DNA from: a virus
Taxonomy: Duplodnaviria; Heunggongvirae; Uroviricota; Caudoviricetes
Virus record (IMG/VR): IMGVR_UViG_3300029214_000137
Length of the DNA stretch: 5,421 nt
Strand: one strand, 5' to 3'
Shown here: positions 317-5,093 of the stretch, one piece after another
Numbering within the stretch: the stretch's first letter is position 1
Layout of the letters: the number at the start of each line of letters is the position of its first letter
The notes under the pieces: model-generated
Told to the model about the DNA's origin: nothing
Database searches by the model: none
What the model saw: the letters and a program-made list of their open reading frames with translations, nothing else
Position numbers and translations under genes: made by a program

Positions 317-440
317 TTTGTTCTCCACGTATATGCGCTGCACCGCGCTGAATTCGGGTAAAAGAAAGCCCTCACCGTCCGGCGATTATTGAGTCAATTA
401 CATTTCCATGAATGCCCCCGTAGGGGCGGTTAGTTTCTCC

Positions 441-529
441 ACAAAACAGAGAAGAACACCTGCGGTGGCAGCCGCCCGGATGGATTGGGTTATGAGCTCG
501 TCGTCCGGTGATGCTCTTCTCTGTTTTGT
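441..529. repeat. 15-bp perfect inverted repeat (ACAAAACAGAGAAGA at 441-455 / TCTTCTCTGTTTTGT at 515-529) flanking a 59-bp GC-rich spacer
   Basis: Arms are exact reverse complements and cannot be extended at either end. The spacer itself has internal complementarity (CCGGA 476-480 / TCCGG 504-508; palindromic GAGCTC at 495-500). Function unknown. Confidence 0.6.
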
Positions 530-573
530 AAAAAGGACGGTACCAGCCGGAAGCAAGGGTACAAGCTGGTACC
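530..573 (-). terminator. Candidate intrinsic terminator for leftward transcription (9-bp stem, 17-nt loop, U-tract)
   Basis: GGTACCAGC (539-547) and GCTGGTACC (565-573) are exact reverse complements. On the minus strand the hairpin is followed by GUCC then UUUUUA (complement of 529-534). The U-tract is offset 4 nt from the stem, so this is a weak call. Confidence 0.3.
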
Positions 574-610
574 TCCAAGACTACACACAGCAATGAAACT
601 ATTGCCTGTC

Positions 611-640
611 TTTTCACCACTTCAGGCTCGGTGGTATGCT
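611..640 (+). promoter_or_regulatory. Candidate sigma70 promoter for the 672-1013 ORF (extended -10 TGgTATGCT; weak -35 TTTTCA)
   Basis: TG at 632-633, -10 hexamer TATGCT at 635-640 (4/6 to TATAAT), -35-like TTTTCA at 611-616 with 18-bp spacer; about 30 nt upstream of the ATG at 672. Pattern match only. Confidence 0.3.
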
Positions 641-671
641 GGAGTTCTCACACAGCCAGCAAGGAAACCTA

Positions 672-1013
672 ATGAACCAGTTTTATGTTCACGTTCGTCT
701 GTTTGAAGCAACAGCCGAACAGACCAAAAAATTTGAAGAATTAATGCTTAACTTTCTGTACCAGAAAACAATCAAAGAGTCTGACGATAGCTGCTGCAGA
801 CTGATTCCAGAGGGATATATCCTCAAAAGCACAATGAACTGCCAACAAATCCTTGATCAAACTTTTTCCATTGCTAACAGTGCTGGTGTTGACGCAAATA
901 TATTTGTCTGCAAATTTGAACAAAGCGCATGCTTACTTCCGTCTGCTTCCTTAGTTGGCAACGATTTTGTTCATCACGATCTTACGCCTAAGCCCATCAA
1001 GCTCGATTCTTAA
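672..1013 (+). CDS. Hypothetical protein (113 aa), rightward-oriented orphan gene embedded in the leftward early region
   Basis: ATG at 672 preceded by AAGGAA (661-666). In frame with the longer track ORF 636-1013, but the 636 ATG lies inside the putative -10. Enteric-typical codon usage, AT-rich (~40% GC by eye). Product MNQFYVHVRLFEATAEQTKKFEELMLNFLYQ... not recognised. Its last 63 bp overlap the convergent 951-1259 gene, which lowers confidence. Confidence 0.5.
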   Translation: MNQFYVHVRLFEATAEQTKKFEELMLNFLYQKTIKESDDSCCRLIPEGYILKSTMNCQQILDQTFSIANSAGVDANIFVCKFEQSACLLPSASLVGNDFVHHDLTPKPIKLDS

Positions 1014-1259
1014 TGCCTTAACCATTGTGTCGTGATAAACACGGCTCACCCTCTCTCCATTGCATGGCAGGGGGGTGATCGTGTTAGCCATGAAATTCAT
1101 GAACTTGGTTCGATCAGGGTCTTGCGCCCCGCAAGTCTTTAATGCCTGTTTTGCTAACAAAATACGGGCCTCAGTGCCTGCATTTGGCTCTATCTGCTGC
1201 AAACGTTTAGCGTCTTCCAGCAACAATGCGATCACATGCTTCAAATTCTGCTCATTCAT
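951..1259 (-). CDS. Hypothetical protein (102 aa), first gene of the PL-driven early-left operon (positional analogue of lambda N, not recognisable as N)
   Basis: Minus-strand ATG at 1259-1257 with a strong GGAGAG Shine-Dalgarno 5 nt upstream (complement of 1265-1270). Lies ~100 nt downstream of the PL-like promoter. Product MNEQNLKHVIALLLEDAKRLQQ... lacks the arginine-rich N-terminal motif of lambda N. Confidence 0.6.
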   Translation of the reverse strand: MNEQNLKHVIALLLEDAKRLQQIEPNAGTEARILLAKQALKTCGAQDPDRTKFMNFMANTITPLPCNGERVSRVYHDTMVKALRIELDGLRRKIVMNKIVAN

Positions 1260-1356: not shown

Positions 1357-1412
1357 AACACCTTTAAGTTGTAATTTAGTTGTGGTTTTGAATGTTGTCA
1401 ACAACTTTATGT
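1357..1412 (-). promoter_or_regulatory. OL/PL-like region: leftward promoter with consensus -35 embedded in repressor operator repeats
   Basis: On the minus strand: -35 TTGACA (plus coords 1396-1401), 17-bp spacer, -10 TAAATT (plus coords 1373-1378). Operator-like heptamer ACAACTT/AAGTTGT at 1366-1372 and 1401-1407, plus variant ATGTTGT at 1392-1398, forming the inverted repeat ATGTTGT-ca-ACAACTT over the -35. The 12-mer ACAACTTTATGT (1401-1412) is identical to 3054-3065 in OR; the 16-mer AACACCTTTAAGTTGT (1357-1372) matches OR 3077-3092 at 14/16. Confidence 0.6.
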
Positions 1413-1464: not shown

Positions 1465-2355
1465 ATGGAAGACGCGCTTTACGCTTTTAATTACACACAG
1501 AACCGGGACAAGTTATTTGCTAACTTGATTAGCATCATTGATGGAATCATTGCAGATGGAGTTGTCCGTGAAGAGGAGGTTCTTTACTTAGATACATGGT
1601 TACTTGAAGCAAAGCAGATTATCAATAATGGAGTTATAAAAAGTCTATCTGCACGGGTGTCGGATATTCTTGCGGATGGAATAATCACATCAGAAGAACG
1701 TGATGACCTTAAAAATAGCCTTCTCCAAATACAGAGGGAAATTCTTGATATCCCTGAAATTGATTTTTACTCCAAGGATGTAGATGTCCATTTACTTAAT
1801 GGACTATGTAAAGGATTAATTGCTGATCGGAACTTAACTCAAGAAGAAATAAGATATCTTAATTGGTGGCTTGAGCAAAATGGAGCTTTGAAGAACAACT
1901 ACCCAGGAAAAAAACTTTATGCACTTGTAAAGGAAATTCTTAAAGATGGTGTTATTACTGAAGATGAGAGTTTAACTCTACATAAGGCATTAGTAGACTT
2001 CACAGGATGTGACTTGGAAAGTGGGGTGGTGGATGGTTTGGCGACCAGGCTGCCTATTGATGTAGAGGCTTCGATAGAGTTAGAGGGTAAAACCTATTGT
2101 CTTACAGGCACTTTTGTTGCAGGAAAGAGAGCCGTAGTTGAAAATTTGATTAAAAATGCTGGTGGGAACATCAGTAGTGGAATTACTCAACAGTTGGATT
2201 TTTTAGTAATTGGGACGCTTTCCTCCCGTGATTGGAAATTCTCTAGTCACGGAAGGAAGATCGAAAAGGCTATATCTTATAGAGATGATAATGGTGCAAA
2301 ACTTAAAATTATTTCTGAAGAAATGCTTTTCGATGCATTACCAAGTTCGCGATGA
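1465..2355 (+). CDS. TerB-like repeat / BRCT-domain protein (296 aa); candidate prophage cargo (exclusion/defence) gene at the rex-equivalent site
   Basis: ATG at 1465 with AAGGAGG (1454-1460) 4 nt upstream; the track's longer ORF starts at a GTG at 1435 with no RBS. N-terminal two-thirds hold four ~22-aa repeats with the motif [IL]-A-D-G-x-[IV]-x-x-E-E (IADGVVREEEVLYL, LADGIITSEERDDL, IADRNLTQEEIRYL, LKDGVITEDESLTL), as in TerB/DjlA-N helical hairpins. The C-terminal ~85 aa (GKTYCLTGTF...QLDFLVIGT...KLKIISEEMLFDAL) follow the BRCT pattern of the LigA C-terminus (GKT-x-V-LTG ... D-x-L-V-x-G ... K-A). ~38% GC in a sampled 60-nt stretch versus ~58% in the Dam gene. Confidence 0.8.
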   Translation: MEDALYAFNYTQNRDKLFANLISIIDGIIADGVVREEEVLYLDTWLLEAKQIINNGVIKSLSARVSDILADGIITSEERDDLKNSLLQIQREILDIPEIDFYSKDVDVHLLNGLCKGLIADRNLTQEEIRYLNWWLEQNGALKNNYPGKKLYALVKEILKDGVITEDESLTLHKALVDFTGCDLESGVVDGLATRLPIDVEASIELEGKTYCLTGTFVAGKRAVVENLIKNAGGNISSGITQQLDFLVIGTLSSRDWKFSSHGRKIEKAISYRDDNGAKLKIISEEMLFDALPSSR

Positions 2356-3024
2356 CCAGAATACCCTACCTATAACATGAATTCTGGCTCGTCTATCTTC
2401 AAAGGTAAGTATTTCATCTGGGTACTCATCTTTGTTGAAGCTTCTAAGAATCAAGCCACCGTCAGGTAAGTTGATAAGTATTTTAACCCTTAGCAATACA
2501 CCATCTCGTACGGCATAAAGATCGCCATCACGAATAGGAACGGTTTGAGAAATATCAACGGCAACAAGATCTCCATTATTGAGAACCGGTAATAAACTGT
2601 TCCCCCATATTTTTACGATCTTGGCATTAGATGCACATACGCCAGATTTTCTCAAATCTGCTCTTCTTAACGGAAACCAGTCAATAGCTGATTCAACTAT
2701 TTCAGCCAGACATCCGTTACCTGCCGATAACTCGACATCTAAAACAGGAATGTTTACGAAAATATCGGGGTCTAATGCGGTGCTTTCTGCTTCTTTTACA
2801 ACAAGATCAGGTATGGATGCGTTGTCTTCAATACCAAGTTGTAACCACTTTTGTGATACACCTAAAACTTTTGCAATTTCTTTAATTTTGCGCGGTTGTA
2901 GAGTTTCGCCATTCTCTATTTTGGCTACAGATTGTTGTGAAAGTCCAATTTTTTCAGCTAGTTGAGCTTGGCTCATGCCAGCTTTCTCTCTACCTATCTT
3001 TAATCGTTCTGCCAGTGTTTTCAC
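2338..3024 (-). CDS. cI: Phage immunity repressor, cI-like (N-terminal XRE-type HTH + C-terminal S24 LexA-like autopeptidase domain), 228 aa
   Basis: GTG start at 3024-3022 with AGAGGGA 6 nt upstream on the minus strand. N-terminus MKTLAERLKIGREKAGMSQAQLAEKIGLSQQSVAKIENGET is a classic HTH_XRE. C-terminal half has an Ala-Gly cleavage site (ELSAGNG), a Ser in G-N-S-L and a Lys in LLRVKIL, consistent with the S24 Ser/Lys dyad, and ends ...IGRVFWSSRTW as in P22 C2/lambda cI-type repressors. Flanked by operator clusters on both sides. Confidence 0.9.
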   Translation of the reverse strand: MKTLAERLKIGREKAGMSQAQLAEKIGLSQQSVAKIENGETLQPRKIKEIAKVLGVSQKWLQLGIEDNASIPDLVVKEAESTALDPDIFVNIPVLDVELSAGNGCLAEIVESAIDWFPLRRADLRKSGVCASNAKIVKIWGNSLLPVLNNGDLVAVDISQTVPIRDGDLYAVRDGVLLRVKILINLPDGGLILRSFNKDEYPDEILTFEDRRARIHVIGRVFWSSRTW

Positions 3025-3049: not shown

Positions 3050-3140
3050 GGTTACAACTTTATGTTTTAGCTTTCCAACACCTAAAAGTTGTGATAAAAG
3101 TTGTTAATGTTGTATTCTTGCAACTCGTAACAACTTAACT
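3050..3140. promoter_or_regulatory. OR-like operator cluster with divergent PR (to cro) and PRM (to cI) promoters; exact promoter hexamers not resolved
   Basis: Heptamer ACAACTT/AAGTTGT occurs four times in ~85 bp (3054-3060, 3086-3092, 3098-3104, 3130-3136), plus variant ATGTTGT at 3107-3113. Shares the 12-mer ACAACTTTATGT and the 16-mer AACACCTAAAAGTTGT with OL. Lies between divergent repressor and cro starts (3024 and 3160). No strong -10/-35 pair could be picked by eye. Confidence 0.65.
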
Positions 3141-3159: not shown

Positions 3160-3408
3160 ATGACACCTGAGCAATTAGCCTTATCGGAGGCAATCGCTCT
3201 GGCTGGTGGTCAATCAGAATTGGCTCGGAAGCTCACAGCCAGCAGCGGTCATTTAGTAAAGCAACAACATGTCTGGAACTGGTTGAACAGAGAAAAGCGT
3301 CCCCCTGCAAAGCTCTCGATATTCATTGAAAAGACCACTGGCATATCAAAAGAAAAATTACGTCCAGATATTTTTCAAAAGATTAAAGATTCATCAGATG
3401 AAAAGTAA
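3160..3408 (+). CDS. cro: Cro-like small HTH regulator (YdaS/Cro family), 82 aa
   Basis: ATG at 3160 with AAAGGAG (3147-3153). Divergent from the repressor across the operator cluster. Product MTPEQLALSEAIALAGGQSELARKL...WNWLNREKRPPAKLSIFIEKTTGISKEKLRPDIF has the YdaS/Cro-type HTH pattern (TG-x-S-x-E-x-LRPD). Confidence 0.85.
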   Translation: MTPEQLALSEAIALAGGQSELARKLTASSGHLVKQQHVWNWLNREKRPPAKLSIFIEKTTGISKEKLRPDIFQKIKDSSDEK

Positions 3409-3430: not shown

Positions 3431-3988
3431 GTGGGTAAGCATCACTGGAAAGTAGAAAAACAGCCTAAGTGGTACGTGAAAGCTGTCAGAAAAACTATCG
3501 CAGCGTTGCCGGGGGGTTACGCTGAAGCAGCTGACTGGCTGGATGTAACAGAGAACGCATTATTTAACCGCCTTCGTGCCGATGGCGATCAAATTTTCCC
3601 GCTGGGATGGGCGATGATTTTACAACGTGCTGGTGGCACTCACTTCATTGCTGACGCTGTGGCGCAGTCTGCAAATGGCGTCTTTGTGTCTCTTCCTGAC
3701 GTCGAGGATGTGGATAACGCCGATATTAACCAGCGCCTGCTGGAAGTCATTGAACAGATTGGCAGTTATTCCAAACAGATTCGTTCGGCAATCGAAGACG
3801 GTGTGGTGGAACCGCATGAGAAGACAGCAATTAACGACGAGCTGTATCTCTCAATTTCGAAGCTGCAGGAGCATGCAGCACTTGTCTACAAAATTTTTTG
3901 CATTTCAGAAAGTAATGACGCCCGCGAGTGTGCAGCTCCGGGCGTCGTGGCGTCGATTGCTTCTGGTTGTGGAGAAACTAACGCATGA
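3431..3988 (+). CDS. CII-like / YdaT-family regulatory protein (186 aa)
   Basis: GTG at 3431 with AAGGAG (3419-3424) 6 nt upstream, 22 bp after the cro stop; the track's longer ORF (from 3326) would overlap cro. Position immediately after cro and size fit the CII(CP76)/YdaT family of lambdoid prophages. Family assignment is by position and recalled pattern, not searched. Confidence 0.7.
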   Translation: MGKHHWKVEKQPKWYVKAVRKTIAALPGGYAEAADWLDVTENALFNRLRADGDQIFPLGWAMILQRAGGTHFIADAVAQSANGVFVSLPDVEDVDNADINQRLLEVIEQIGSYSKQIRSAIEDGVVEPHEKTAINDELYLSISKLQEHAALVYKIFCISESNDARECAAPGVVASIASGCGETNA

Positions 3989-4116: not shown

Positions 4117-4770
4117 ATGAGTAATAAATATTGGCAGGCGCTGGTGGAACTGCGGAACAAACCAGCCCATGAACTGAAGGAAGTGGGCGATCAGTGGCGC
4201 ACGCCGGACAACATTTTCTGGGGAATTAACACCCTGTTTGGCCCGTTTGTTCTGGATCTGTTCACTGACGGTGATAACGCCAAATGTGCCGCGTATTACA
4301 CGGCGGAAGACAACGCGCTGGCGCATGACTGGTCAGAACGTCTTGCGGAGCTTAAAGGTGCTGCCTTTGGTAATCCCCCATACAGCCGCGCCAGTCAGCA
4401 TGAGGGGCAATACATCACCGGCATGCGTTACATCATGAAGCATGCCAGTGCCATGCGTGATAAAGGCGGGCGCTATGTTTTCCTGATCAAAGCGGCCACC
4501 AGCGAAGTGTGGTGGCCGGAAGATGCAGATCATATTGCTTTTATTCGCGGGCGTATTGGTTTTGAACTACCTGCCTGGTTTATACCGAAGGACGAGAAGC
4601 AGGTGCCGACAGGTGCTTTCTTCGCTGGTGCCATTGCTGTTTTCGACAAGACCTGGAAGGGATCGGCAATCAGCTACATCGGGCGCGATGAACTTGAGGC
4701 ATGTGGTGAGGCCTTTCTGGCGCAGGTTCGCCAGCAGGCGGAAAAACTGGTCAGGGAGATGGCGGCATGA
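4117..4770 (+). CDS. Phage Dam-type DNA N6-adenine methyltransferase (217 aa)
   Basis: ATG at 4117 preceded by GGGGG (4108-4112); the track ORF begins at an in-frame GTG at 4084. Product has the catalytic NPPY motif (AAFGNPPYSRA) and an N-terminal W-R-T-P-D-x-x-F ... Y-Y-T-A-E-D-N-A-L layout typical of phage Dam (Pfam Dam-like) enzymes of lambdoid nin regions. ~58% GC in a sampled stretch. Confidence 0.85.
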   Translation: MSNKYWQALVELRNKPAHELKEVGDQWRTPDNIFWGINTLFGPFVLDLFTDGDNAKCAAYYTAEDNALAHDWSERLAELKGAAFGNPPYSRASQHEGQYITGMRYIMKHASAMRDKGGRYVFLIKAATSEVWWPEDADHIAFIRGRIGFELPAWFIPKDEKQVPTGAFFAGAIAVFDKTWKGSAISYIGRDELEACGEAFLAQVRQQAEKLVREMAA

Positions 4771-5093
4771 CGACATTAACTCAATGCCAGCAGCAGGTGC
4801 TGGATATGCTGATTTCTTACCAGCAAGAACGTGGCTTTCCGCCAACCAATCAGGAGGTGGCAACCATGCTGGGATACCGTTCGGTGAATGCAGCGGTGGA
4901 GCATCTTCGCGCACTGGAGAAAAAAGGCGTCATCACGATAAAGCGTGGCGTGGCCCGGGGGATAACTCTTCATACCGCGGTGAAGGACGACGACAGCGAG
5001 GCGGTCGGGATTATCCGCGCACTGCTTGCCGGTGAGGAAAACGGCAGGCTGCGTGCAGCCCACTGGTTACATGAGAGGGGCCTGAAAGTATGA
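4767..5093 (+). CDS. LexA N-terminal DNA-binding-domain protein without peptidase domain (108 aa)
   Basis: ATG at 4767 overlaps the Dam stop (ATGA at 4767-4770). Product MTTLTQCQQQVLDMLISYQQERGFPPTNQEVATMLGYRSVNAAVEHLRALEKKGVITIKRGVARGITL parallels the LexA winged-helix domain (LexA: ...LTARQQEVFDLI...[46 protein letters not shown]). No Ala-Gly site or S24 domain follows. Confidence 0.7.
   Translation: MTTLTQCQQQVLDMLISYQQERGFPPTNQEVATMLGYRSVNAAVEHLRALEKKGVITIKRGVARGITLHTAVKDDDSEAVGIIRALLAGEENGRLRAAHWLHERGLKV

What the first reader, a model, noticed from the sequence alone, without database searches (positions are those of the whole stretch)
672..1013. Rightward AT-rich orphan gene inside the leftward early region, overlapping the first PL gene by 63 bp
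The ORF has a plausible RBS, an upstream extended -10-like element (TGgTATGCT, 632-640), typical codon usage and lower GC than the flanking genes. It runs antiparallel to the early-left operon and its last 21 codons overlap the last 21 codons of the 951-1259 gene on the opposite strand. This looks like an independently transcribed moron whose expression would be antisense to early-left transcripts. The product (starts MNQFYVHVRLFEATAEQTKKFEEL) is not recognisable to me.
Basis: partly seen in the sequence, partly recalled or inferred. Interest (0 to 1): 0.5.

Follow-up and report, generated by a model that had tools for sequence, protein, structure and literature searches.

The report
Prophage gene ymfI, a GhoS-like protein
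The ORF is a real gene that is already annotated, ymfI of e14-type lambdoid prophages; it encodes a small protein with the fold of the GhoS/Cas2 RNA-cutting proteins, runs against the phage's early-left operon, and still has no known function.

Summary
ORF 672-1013 (+) encodes 113 aa, has a Shine-Dalgarno sequence and a TGgTATGCT element at 632-640, and overlaps the 951-1259 (-) gene by 63 nt. It is not an orphan. It is ymfI (NCBIfam NF051477, 162 bits against a cutoff of 140) and is 97% identical to E. coli K-12 e14 YmfI. The overlapped gene is ymfJ.

It is a true protein gene. The frame is kept in 43 loci from several enterobacterial genera, and dN/dS is 0.15.

The -35, extended -10 and SD blocks are conserved even upstream of about 50%-identical relatives, which supports an own promoter.

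All relatives examined sit in the same rightward slot of lambdoid early-left operons, where lambda and Rac carry sieB.

Literature on K-12: ymfI-ymfJ is a convergent excludon, and YmfI protein co-purified with RNA polymerase.

The most likely role is a lysogen-expressed factor acting on RNA or transcription, but the mechanism is unproven. The gene is already known and of moderate interest.

The parts
603..671 (+). Conserved promoter and leader of ymfI. The -35-like TTCACC is at 613-618, followed by a 16-nt spacer and the extended -10 TGgTATGCT at 632-640. The inferred TSS is near 647. The SD AAGGAAA is at 661-667.
   Evidence: Homology among 21 distinct upstream sequences starts abruptly at about 603. 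Mean pairwise identity is 0.95 here, against 0.70 at third codon positions of the CDS. The -35, -10 and SD blocks recur upstream of about 50%-identical relatives (L047, L057, L050), while the spacer and UTR differ. No TSS was measured.
672..1013 (+). ymfI coding sequence: 113 aa plus the stop codon.
   Evidence: NCBIfam NF051477 YmfI_phage scores 162 bits against a cutoff of 140. phrog_8894 matches at 1.7e-41. RefSeq annotates ymfI at this place in near-identical genomes and in K-12 e14. The frame is kept in 43 loci (20 unique sequences), with one in-frame codon indel. dN/dS is 0.15, and variable sites by codon position are 36/23/72.
672..950 (+). Core domain, aa 1-93. It is a GhoS/Cas2-like ferredoxin fold in the order beta-alpha-beta-alpha-beta.
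930..1013 (+). C-terminal tail, aa 87-113, predicted disordered. Its last 20 codons are encoded antisense to the end of ymfJ.
   Evidence: pLDDT is below 50 for residues 87-113. The tail is absent from the about 92-96-aa distant relatives and is 8 aa shorter in Scandinavium. In the 57-nt overlap, dN/dS is 0.30 in the ymfI frame and 1.16 in the ymfJ frame.
951..1259 (-). ymfJ-type gene (102 aa). It is the first ORF downstream of the PL-like promoter and the convergent partner that overlaps ymfI by 63 nt.
   Evidence: phrog_12693 matches at 4.6e-69. It is 93% identical to K-12 YmfJ, with the same 63-nt overlap in K-12. dN/dS is 0.28 outside the overlap. It has no Pfam, PDB or PADLOC match. The single-sequence AF2 model is all-helical and of low confidence.
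1121..1145 (+). Terminator-like hairpin CTTGCGCCCCGCAAG followed by TCTTTAATGC. It is a possible 3' end of the ymfI transcript inside ymfJ.
   Evidence: Reported by the consensus scan. It is conserved wherever this ymfJ type is present and is lost in L028. It lies in conserved coding sequence, so the conservation does not prove function.
1373..1401 (-). PL-like early-left promoter, whose transcripts would run antisense through ymfI.
   Evidence: TTGACA-17-TAAATT matches 10 of 12 positions. The 12-mer ACAACTTTATGT at 1401-1412 is repeated at 3054-3065 next to the cI/cro divergent region.

Best explanation
The ORF is ymfI, a conserved protein-coding gene of e14-type lambdoid prophages.

Transcription. 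It has its own sigma-70-type promoter (weak -35 TTCACC, extended -10 TGgTATGCT). It is transcribed rightward, against the repressor-controlled early-left (PL) operon. It therefore forms a convergent, 3'-overlapping pair (an excludon) with ymfJ. In the prophage state ymfI is on and PL is off. After induction, PL transcription runs antisense through the whole of ymfI and should silence it.

Product. The protein has a roughly 90-residue GhoS/Cas2-like ferredoxin-fold domain and a conserved, disordered 20-25-residue tail.

Function (inferred). I infer that it is a lysogen-expressed factor that acts on RNA or on transcribing RNA polymerase. It could either control leaky early-left transcripts or act against superinfecting phage. 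It sits in the slot where lambda, P22 and Rac carry sieB.

What is shown and what is inferred:
- Shown: gene identity, purifying selection, fold-level homology, the conserved genomic slot, and the conserved promoter blocks.
- From literature on the K-12 orthologue: overlapping transcription with ymfJ, and presence of the protein in uninduced cells in an RNA polymerase pull-down.
- Inferred: reciprocal regulation with PL, and any RNA- or RNAP-directed activity.
For: Identity:
- NF051477 scores above its cutoff.
- RefSeq annotates ymfI and ymfJ with the same overlap.

Coding:
- The frame is kept in 43 loci, dN/dS is 0.15, and variation shows third-position periodicity.
- In K-12 a 4-nt insertion puts the upstream ATG out of frame, so ATG672 is the start.

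Promoter:
- The leader is 95% identical across loci, against 70% at synonymous positions.
- The -35, -10 and SD blocks are conserved in distant relatives.

Fold and family:
- The YmfI profile finds about 92-96-aa relatives, two of which pass the Pfam GhoS cutoff.
- hhalign gives 98-99% probability.

Genomic slot:
- All six distant relatives looked up are rightward genes inside leftward early operons. They lie between N or the first PL genes and kil, dicB, kilR or cIII.

Expression and association (K-12 literature):
- ymfI-ymfJ is in the convergent excludome in at least 50% of transcriptomes (PMC12288877).
- SOS induces ymfJ by log2 4.8 but ymfI by only about 2, and late (PMC11002266).
- YmfI was detected at 'relatively high intensity' in an RpoC-TAP eluate (PMC3942186).
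- The other unknown protein in that eluate, YgfB, has since been tied to RNA polymerase beta' (PMC13627669).

Tail:
- dN/dS is 0.30 in the ymfI frame and 1.16 in the ymfJ frame within the overlap.
Against: - No transcript, TSS or terminator was measured for this window, and the simple promoter scan missed the site.
- YmfI itself gets no Pfam GhoS hit.
- The link from the about 94-aa family to canonical E. coli GhoS is weak by hhalign alone (E 0.007).
- GhoS Arg28, reported as the residue most important for RNase activity (PMC4010927), aligns with Glu22 of YmfI. GhoS Asp15 aligns with Arg9.
- No GhoT-like ORF is nearby.
- The convergent partners are mosaic, not one conserved family.
- The RNA polymerase co-purification is a single unvalidated mass-spectrometry observation from cold-shocked cells.
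- There is no PADLOC hit.
- Many E. coli prophages carry only deleted remnants of the gene, so it is dispensable.
Confidence: 0.5

Rival explanations
1. Type V antitoxin-like RNase. YmfI would be a sequence-specific endoribonuclease like GhoS. In the lysogen it would cleave early-left mRNA for a harmful product (ymfJ, or kil/dicB/kilR-type genes in related prophages). That would neutralise leaky PL expression.
For: - The fold and family link to GhoS.
- Relatives lie between PL and DicB, KilR or Kil genes.
- GhoS is documented as an RNase specific for ghoT mRNA (PMC4010927).
Against: - The GhoS Arg28 equivalent is Glu22.
- No polar residue is invariant across the whole family.
- No GhoT-like gene is present.
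- No kil-type gene lies left of ymfI in this window, in the closest genome or in K-12 e14.
- The convergent partners are mosaic.
Confidence: 0.15
2. RNA polymerase-binding modulator. YmfI would bind host RNA polymerase in the lysogen, perhaps through its conserved disordered tail. It would alter termination or elongation, functionally like HK022 Nun. The result would be exclusion of superinfecting phages or tighter silencing of the prophage.
For: - YmfI was found in an RpoC-TAP eluate (PMC3942186).
- The co-detected YgfB was later linked to RNA polymerase beta' (PMC13627669).
- The tail is under purifying selection.
- Relatives lie next to N genes.
Against: - It rests on a single pull-down without reciprocal validation or RNase control for that sample.
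- There is no sequence or fold similarity to Nun, N or any known RNAP-binding protein.
- The distant relatives lack the tail.
Confidence: 0.25
3. Superinfection-exclusion or anti-phage effector with a target other than RNA or RNA polymerase. It would be carried as a moron in the sieB slot.
For: - It has the same position and orientation as sieB. This rests on established knowledge of lambda, P22 and Rac maps; sieB-ydaF is also listed as a convergent excludon.
- It has lower G+C than its flanks.
- Other defence-like cargo sits nearby: a BRCT protein with a weak PADLOC PDC-S48 match, and Lit in K-12 e14.
Against: - No match to any PADLOC model.
- No similarity to SieB.
- No phenotype is reported in the literature searched.
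Confidence: 0.15
4. Only the act of rightward transcription matters, through interference with or antisense pairing to PL transcripts. The protein itself would be irrelevant.
For: - The convergent overlap is conserved in nearly all relatives.
- The K-12 pair is listed as an excludon.
Against: - Purifying selection on the protein is strong: dN/dS 0.15, with an in-frame indel only.
- The fold is conserved over relatives with about 25-30% identity.
Confidence: 0.05
5. Chance ORF on the antisense strand of the early-left operon; not a gene.
For: None beyond its small size and antisense position.
Against: plus the protein detection in K-12.
Confidence: 0.01

Closest known systems
YmfI of E. coli K-12 cryptic prophage e14 (b1143; NCBIfam NF051477 'YmfI family phage protein'; phrog_8894)
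   Same: The protein is 97% identical and the same length (113 aa). It has the same 63-nt convergent overlap with ymfJ and the same place between the CI-like repressor/PL and the xis-int side.
   Different: The window's prophage carries a different immunity region, plus an extra BRCT-domain gene between PL and cI. A yfdR-type HD hydrolase lies to the left instead of ymfH-xisE. The K-12 allele has a 4-nt insertion in the leader.
GhoS (YjdK), type V antitoxin endoribonuclease of E. coli; Pfam PF11080 (formerly DUF2622); PDB 2LLZ
   Different: YmfI scores below the Pfam threshold. Arg28 and Asp15 of GhoS are Glu22 and Arg9 in YmfI. There is no downstream ghoT-like toxin gene. YmfI has an extra disordered tail, lies in a prophage rather than the chromosome, and is convergent with its neighbour rather than in an operon with it.
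Cas2 (CRISPR adaptation protein / RNase fold)
   Different: There is no sequence similarity, no CRISPR context, and no conserved acidic residue at the end of strand 1 (Arg9 in YmfI).
sieB of lambda, P22 and Rac (superinfection exclusion gene)
   Same: It occupies an analogous slot: a gene expressed from the prophage, embedded in and opposed to the early-left operon near N. In Rac, sieB-ydaF is likewise a convergent excludon (map positions come from established knowledge).
   Different: There is no sequence or fold relationship. SieB is a larger membrane protein, whereas YmfI is a small soluble alpha/beta protein.
Bacterial excludons (convergent overlapping transcription units)
   Same: The pair is convergent and its 3' ends overlap. 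The K-12 orthologous pair is listed in the MG1655 excludome (PMC12288877).
   Different: Here the overlap includes 20 sense codons of both proteins, not only UTRs. One partner is a repressor-controlled phage early operon that continues through the whole antisense gene.

Membership tests
YmfI family phage protein (NCBIfam NF051477) | The whole-protein HMM score is above the curated cutoff. | tested here: met
   162 bits against a cutoff of 140, covering residues 1-90. phrog_8894 also matches at 1.7e-41.
YmfI family phage protein (NCBIfam NF051477) | Synteny as in e14: rightward gene, convergent with and overlapping ymfJ, in the early-left region next to the CI-like repressor. | tested here: met
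   The overlap is 63 nt, as in K-12. A ymfJ-like C-terminus is found convergent to ymfI in all 43 loci.
GhoS / DUF2622 (Pfam PF11080) | A Pfam HMM match at or above the gathering score (21 bits). | tested here: not met
   YmfI has no Pfam hit at E up to 1. Distant relatives P0037 (24.2 bits) and P0040 (28.8 bits) do pass. 17 of the 54 sequences in alignment A5 (six canonical GhoS plus about 94-aa relatives) match at E up to 1e-3.
GhoS / DUF2622 (Pfam PF11080) | Profile-level homology to family members over the whole domain. | tested here: met
   hhalign of the YmfI alignment against the family gives Prob 98.9%, E 1.8e-17 over 92 columns. Without the bridging sequences it is still 98.2-98.5%. 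Against canonical GhoS alone the result is not significant.
GhoS / DUF2622 (Pfam PF11080) | A ferredoxin-like fold like GhoS structure 2LLZ. | tested here: met
Type V toxin-antitoxin system (GhoT/GhoS) | An adjacent co-transcribed small membrane toxin gene (GhoT, PF10753). | tested here: not met
   No co-directional gene follows ymfI. ymfJ and the small flanking ORFs have no PF10753 or other relevant Pfam hit.
Type V toxin-antitoxin system (GhoT/GhoS) | The Arg28 residue reported as most important for GhoS RNase activity. | tested here: not met
   Arg28 aligns with Glu22 of YmfI, which is nearly invariant in the family. Asp15 aligns with Arg9. The residue's role is taken from PMC4010927.
Type V toxin-antitoxin system (GhoT/GhoS) | Endoribonuclease activity on the toxin mRNA. 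| not testable with these tools
   This needs purified protein and RNA substrates.
Moron (independently transcribed prophage cargo gene) | An own promoter. | tested here: inconclusive
   The -35, extended -10 and SD blocks are conserved across divergent relatives. The consensus scan is negative, and no TSS data exist for this sequence.
Moron (independently transcribed prophage cargo gene) | An own terminator. | tested here: inconclusive
   There is a hairpin with a T-rich tail at 1121-1145 (+). It is conserved only together with the ymfJ coding sequence.
Moron (independently transcribed prophage cargo gene) | Base composition differs from the flanks, and the gene is expressed from the repressed prophage. 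| tested here: met
   G+C is 39.8% against 46.6-51% in the flanks. Expression in uninduced K-12 comes from the literature: the excludome listing and MS detection.
Excludon | Convergent neighbours whose transcripts overlap. | tested here: inconclusive
   The CDS overlap of 63 nt is shown. Transcript overlap is shown only for the K-12 orthologues, in the literature (PMC12288877). Reciprocal expression was not tested.
Known anti-phage defence systems (PADLOC-DB v2) | A match to a defence-protein HMM. | tested here: not met
   No hit for YmfI or YmfJ at E up to 1.

The most novel reading that the evidence does not exclude
The YmfI/DUF2622 proteins may be a widespread family, until now unrecognised, of lysogen-expressed factors directed at RNA or RNA polymerase. 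They occupy a fixed 'anti-sense slot' of lambdoid early-left operons. There they would either police leaky PL transcripts or exclude superinfecting phages. The chromosomal type V antitoxin GhoS would be a domesticated offshoot of this prophage family. The conserved disordered tail, encoded antisense to ymfJ, would be the interaction motif, for example for RNA polymerase.
Probability: 0.25. Interest if true: 0.6.

Novelty: already known. Interest (0 to 1): 0.33.

Why it matters
The gene and its overlap with ymfJ are already annotated, so the finding is not a discovery in itself.

Three things add value. First, ymfI is placed in the GhoS/Cas2-fold family. Second, this family always sits in one rightward slot of lambdoid early-left operons. 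Third, the gene is connected to a neglected report that YmfI co-purifies with RNA polymerase.

Together these give a long-uncharacterised K-12 y-gene a testable hypothesis: a prophage factor acting on RNA or transcription in the lysogen. They also suggest a prophage origin for the only known type V antitoxin.

Tried and rejected
- **Upstream ATG636 as start (125 aa).** Rejected. It lies inside the -10 element, and a 4-nt insertion in the K-12-type leader puts it out of frame.
- **LexA control.** Rejected. A perfect CTGT-N8-ACAG lies at 699-714 inside the CDS, but the CTG half-site is lost in most homologues, including K-12. The match count is also at chance level. Reviews list ymfI only under 'potential SOS box'.
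- **Conserved promoter as a portable module driving other cargo.** Rejected. The roughly 545 E. coli genomes with only the first 33-65 nt carry deletion remnants. These include 63-aa internal-deletion alleles such as SfII_36 and P0028.
- **Rfam scan of the window at E up to 1.** Nothing relevant.
- **tblastn of YmfI against 50,697 phage records.** No match. The relative P0041 hits only Pseudomonas and Burkholderia phage hypothetical proteins.
- **PDB sequence searches with the YmfI profile and with YmfJ.** No hits.
- **BFVD fold search.** Only generic ferredoxin-like hits.
- **hhalign of the YmfI profile against the single GhoS sequence.** In register but not significant.
- **YmfJ structure.** The single-sequence model is of low confidence and all-helical, so it was not searched further.
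- **Strict two-gene (toxin-antitoxin-like) module with the convergent partner.** Rejected, because the partners are mosaic.
- **gSELEX minor-sigma peak near xisE-ymfI in K-12.** It lies inside xisE, at least 465 nt upstream of ymfI (xisE and ymfI positions), so it is not evidence for this promoter.
Full report
**1. What is in the sequence.** The window is the immunity and early region of a lambdoid prophage of E. coli.

| Coordinates | Strand | Feature |
|---|---|---|
| 2338-3024 | - | CI/LexA-type repressor |
| 3160-3408 | + | Cro/YdaS-type gene |
| 3431-3988 | + | CII/YmfL-type gene |
| further right | + | Dam, a LexA-like gene and RusA |
| 1465-2355 | + | BRCT-domain gene |
| 2-316 | - | HD-phosphohydrolase gene at the left end |

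- A PL-like promoter, TTGACA-17-TAAATT, lies at 1401-1373 on the minus strand.
- It shares the 12-mer ACAACTTTATGT with the cI/cro intergenic region.
- The first ORF it would transcribe is 951-1259 (-).
- The reported ORF 672-1013 (+) is present exactly as described. It has AAGGAAA 4 nt before the ATG and TGgTATGCT at 632-640, and it overlaps the minus-strand gene by 63 nt in the same codon register.
- Its G+C is 39.8%, against 46.6% for the overlapped gene and 51% for the upstream stretch.
- An ATG ORF this long arose in 4 of 2000 shuffles.

**2. Identity.** The ORF is not an orphan.
- It scores 162 bits against NCBIfam NF051477 'YmfI family phage protein' (cutoff 140) and 1.7e-41 against phrog_8894.
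- Megablast against complete E. coli genomes finds near-identical prophages in which RefSeq annotates ymfI and, overlapping it, a ymfJ-type gene.
- In E. coli K-12 the e14 element has ymfI and ymfJ with the same 63-nt overlap.
- The window's protein is 97% identical to K-12 YmfI, and its partner is 93% identical to K-12 YmfJ.
- At least 80% of the 603-1013 module is present in 303 of 5426 complete E. coli genomes.
- About 545 more genomes hold only remnants, including 63-aa internal-deletion alleles such as the one annotated in phage SfII.

**3. It is a real protein gene.**
- In 43 loci (20 distinct nucleotide sequences) from E. coli, Klebsiella, Raoultella, Enterobacter, Salmonella and Scandinavium, the frame is open throughout.
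- The only length change inside the core is one in-frame codon indel.
- In the 93 codons that do not overlap ymfJ, pooled Nei-Gojobori dN/dS is 0.15 (dS 0.64).
- Variable sites fall 36/23/72 on codon positions 1/2/3.
- The in-frame upstream ATG636 is not the start. It lies within the -10 element, and in the K-12-type leader a 4-nt insertion puts it out of frame.

**4. Promoter and leader.**
- Homology among the loci begins abruptly at about position 603.
- From there to the ATG, mean pairwise identity is 0.95, and 0.99 for 633-662.
- That is higher than at second codon positions of the gene (0.93) and far above third positions (0.70).
- Upstream of relatives only about 50% identical in protein (L047, L057, L050), three blocks recur: TTTC(A/G)CCAC, GTGGTAT(G/C)CT and the (C)AAGG-type SD (AAGGAAA in L047 and L057, AAGGCAT in L050). 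The spacer between the first two blocks differs in L047 and L057, and the UTR differs in all three.
- The -35 is weak, so the consensus scan did not report it. No transcript was measured here.
- The two conserved blocks also form an inverted repeat (ACCAC/GTGGT), so an operator function cannot be excluded.

**5. The overlap and the tail.**
- The last 20 sense codons of ymfI are the reverse complement of the last 20 of ymfJ.
- The AlphaFold model predicts residues 87-113 to be disordered.
- More distant relatives are 92-96 aa and lack this tail.
- In Scandinavium the tail is 8 residues shorter.
- Even so, in 14 distinct overlap sequences dN/dS is 0.30 in the ymfI frame and 1.16 in the ymfJ frame.
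- Outside the overlap ymfJ has dN/dS 0.28.
- With the caveat that such estimates are interdependent in overlapping genes and rest on 57 nt, the tail looks constrained as protein rather than a by-product of read-through.

**6. Fold and family.**
- Pfam gives no hit for YmfI itself.
- A profile of 15 YmfI sequences searched against 1.84 billion representatives finds only 16 proteins. These include about 92-96-aa proteins aligned over the full core.
- Two of these pass the Pfam gathering score for PF11080 'Endoribonuclease GhoS', formerly DUF2622.
- A search seeded with GhoS plus these bridging proteins collected about 100 proteins. Some are named GhoS or DUF2622 by their sources.
- hhalign of the YmfI alignment against this family gives Prob 98.9%, E 1.8e-17 over 92 columns.
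- It still gives 98.2-98.5% when the bridging sequences are removed.
- The link from the about 94-aa group to the six canonical E. coli GhoS sequences is weak by hhalign alone (E 0.007). It rests on Pfam's grouping, where 17 of the 54 aligned sequences (the six canonical GhoS included) match PF11080.
- Structure gives independent support. The AF2 model has a confident core with strands 2-11, 48-53 and 74-82 and helices 15-27 and 57-70.
- Foldseek likewise gives 2LLZ the best TM-score.

**7. Limits of the GhoS analogy.**
- GhoS is described as an endoribonuclease specific for ghoT mRNA, with Arg28 the most important residue (PMC4010927).
- In the alignments Arg28 corresponds to Glu22 of YmfI, and to His or Tyr in the about 94-aa group.
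- GhoS Asp15 corresponds to Arg9 of YmfI. This is a reciprocal charge swap whose meaning is unknown.
- No polar residue is invariant over the whole family.
- There is no GhoT-like gene. Nothing co-directional follows ymfI, and ymfJ and the small neighbouring ORFs have no relevant Pfam match.
- YmfI is therefore filed as GhoS-fold and GhoS-family-related, not as a type V antitoxin.

**8. A fixed genomic slot.**
- All six distant relatives whose contigs were retrieved are rightward genes embedded in the leftward early operon of lambdoid or Rac-like prophages.
- They lie between the repressor, N or the first PL genes on one side and DicB, KilR, Kil, cIII or recombination genes on the other.
- All but one overlap the 3' end of a small leftward gene, by 4, 14, 24 or 90 nt.
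- These partners are mosaic. Some share an N-terminal MKFxDLP domain and some share the C-terminal VSRVYHDTMVKAL motif with YmfJ. They are therefore not one conserved partner family.
- By established knowledge of the lambda, P22 and Rac maps, this is the slot where the prophage-expressed exclusion gene sieB sits.
- sieB-ydaF of Rac is listed as a convergent excludon alongside ymfI-ymfJ.

**9. What the literature says about the K-12 orthologue.**
- ymfI-ymfJ belongs to the MG1655 convergent 'excludome', defined by RNA-seq in at least half of the transcriptomes analysed (PMC12288877).
- During SOS induction ymfJ rises by log2 4.8 and ymfI by only about 2, and late (PMC11002266).
- ymfJ, xisE and ymfL, but not ymfI, cluster with SOS genes in hupAB mutants (PMC2634741).
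- ymfI is reported as down-regulated under several stresses (PMC9501238).
- YmfI protein was detected 'with relatively high intensity' in an RpoC-TAP (RNA polymerase) eluate from uninduced, cold-shocked K-12, together with YgfB (PMC3942186).
- The YgfB family has since been linked to RNA polymerase beta' (PMC13627669).
- No paper searched assigns a function to YmfI.

**10. Most likely mechanism.**
- Shown: a conserved, selected protein gene with a GhoS/Cas2-like core, a conserved tail, conserved promoter blocks and a conserved antisense position in the early-left operon.
- From the literature: overlapping transcription with ymfJ, and protein present in the repressed prophage state in an RNA polymerase pull-down.
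- Inferred: ymfI is expressed while PL is repressed and is shut down by PL transcription after induction. Its product would act on RNA or on transcribing polymerase.
- Rivals: a type V-like RNase that cleaves early-left mRNA (0.15); an RNA polymerase-binding modulator in the manner of Nun (0.25); an exclusion effector with another target (0.15); a purely cis antisense role (0.05, disfavoured by dN/dS); a chance ORF (refuted).

**11. Novelty and interest.**
- The gene, its name and its overlap are already in RefSeq and EcoCyc-type annotation, and the pair is already listed as an excludon. The finding is therefore 'already known'.
- The assignment to the GhoS/DUF2622 fold family, the fixed slot of that family in lambdoid prophages, and the selected tail are modest new inferences.
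- Together they make an old y-gene testable.

**12. Leads that went nowhere.**
- The Rfam scan, PADLOC and the BFVD fold search were uninformative.
- The PDB sequence searches gave nothing.
- tblastn against phage genomes found no YmfI match.
- The YmfJ model is of low confidence.
- The LexA-like box at 699-714 is not conserved.

**13. Seen in passing.** The 170-nt stretch just upstream (about 416-592) is a separately conserved, strongly folding element found in thousands of E. coli prophages. It is described under 'noticed in passing'.

Noticed in passing
window 405-600 (both strands), immediately upstream of the ymfI promoter: A stretch of about 170 nt is 93-96% identical in many lambdoid phages (Stx2c phages, SfV, SfII, SfIV, mEp460). 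The 1.2-kb query containing it matched 3047 of 5426 complete E. coli genomes, with most matches confined to this stretch. It occurs independently of ymfI. It folds strongly on both strands (z -4.2 on plus, -5.6 on minus), with a roughly 24-bp hairpin flanked by two shorter hairpins. Seven pairs show compensatory changes, and the third hairpin is kept with an entirely different sequence in Salmonella-type copies. There is no Rfam match. It may be a processing, termination or sRNA element of the early-left transcript.
   Followed up: partly
window 372-620 (-); K-12 ymfH (L002 3981-4292): The ORF annotated as ymfH or 'hypothetical protein' over this structured element does not keep its frame between copies (1-nt and 4/5-nt indels). 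RefSeq often marks it 'frameshifted'. It has no Pfam or NCBIfam match. It is probably not a protein gene.
   Followed up: partly
window 1465-2355 (+): A 296-aa protein with a C-terminal BRCT domain (PF00533, 1.3e-6) belongs to phrog_3989 (2.9e-128). It lies between the PL-like promoter and cI, is transcribed divergently from PL, and converges on cI with an 18-nt overlap (2338-2355). It has a weak PADLOC match to candidate system PDC-S48 (2.2e-7). It is low in G+C (37.9%) and absent from K-12 e14. It is a possible defence or lysogenic-conversion moron in the rexAB-like position.
   Followed up: no
loci L044-L057 (relatives of YmfI): The about 92-102-aa YmfI/DUF2622/GhoS-like proteins are consistently prophage genes in one slot of the early-left operon. 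Several lie next to cell-division inhibitors (DicB, KilR, Kil) or N. This suggests that the chromosomal antitoxin GhoS derives from a prophage family.
   Followed up: partly
window 4767-5093 (+): A 108-aa ORF in the replication/nin region is annotated in RefSeq relatives as a 'LexA family transcriptional regulator'. Its length suggests it has only the N-terminal DNA-binding part.
   Followed up: no
window 1401-1412 and 3054-3065: The identical 12-mer ACAACTTTATGT lies at the PL-like promoter and in the cI/cro intergenic region. Related AAGTTGT/ACAACTT motifs surround it. These are candidate operators of this immunity type.
   Followed up: partly
window 400-427 and about 1.3 kb to the left in related loci (e.g. 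L010 821-848): A short GC-rich hairpin with its flank (ACATTTCCATGAATGCCCCCGTAGGGGC) recurs at 89% identity at a second intergenic position in related prophages. On the plus strand it scores as terminator-like.
   Followed up: no
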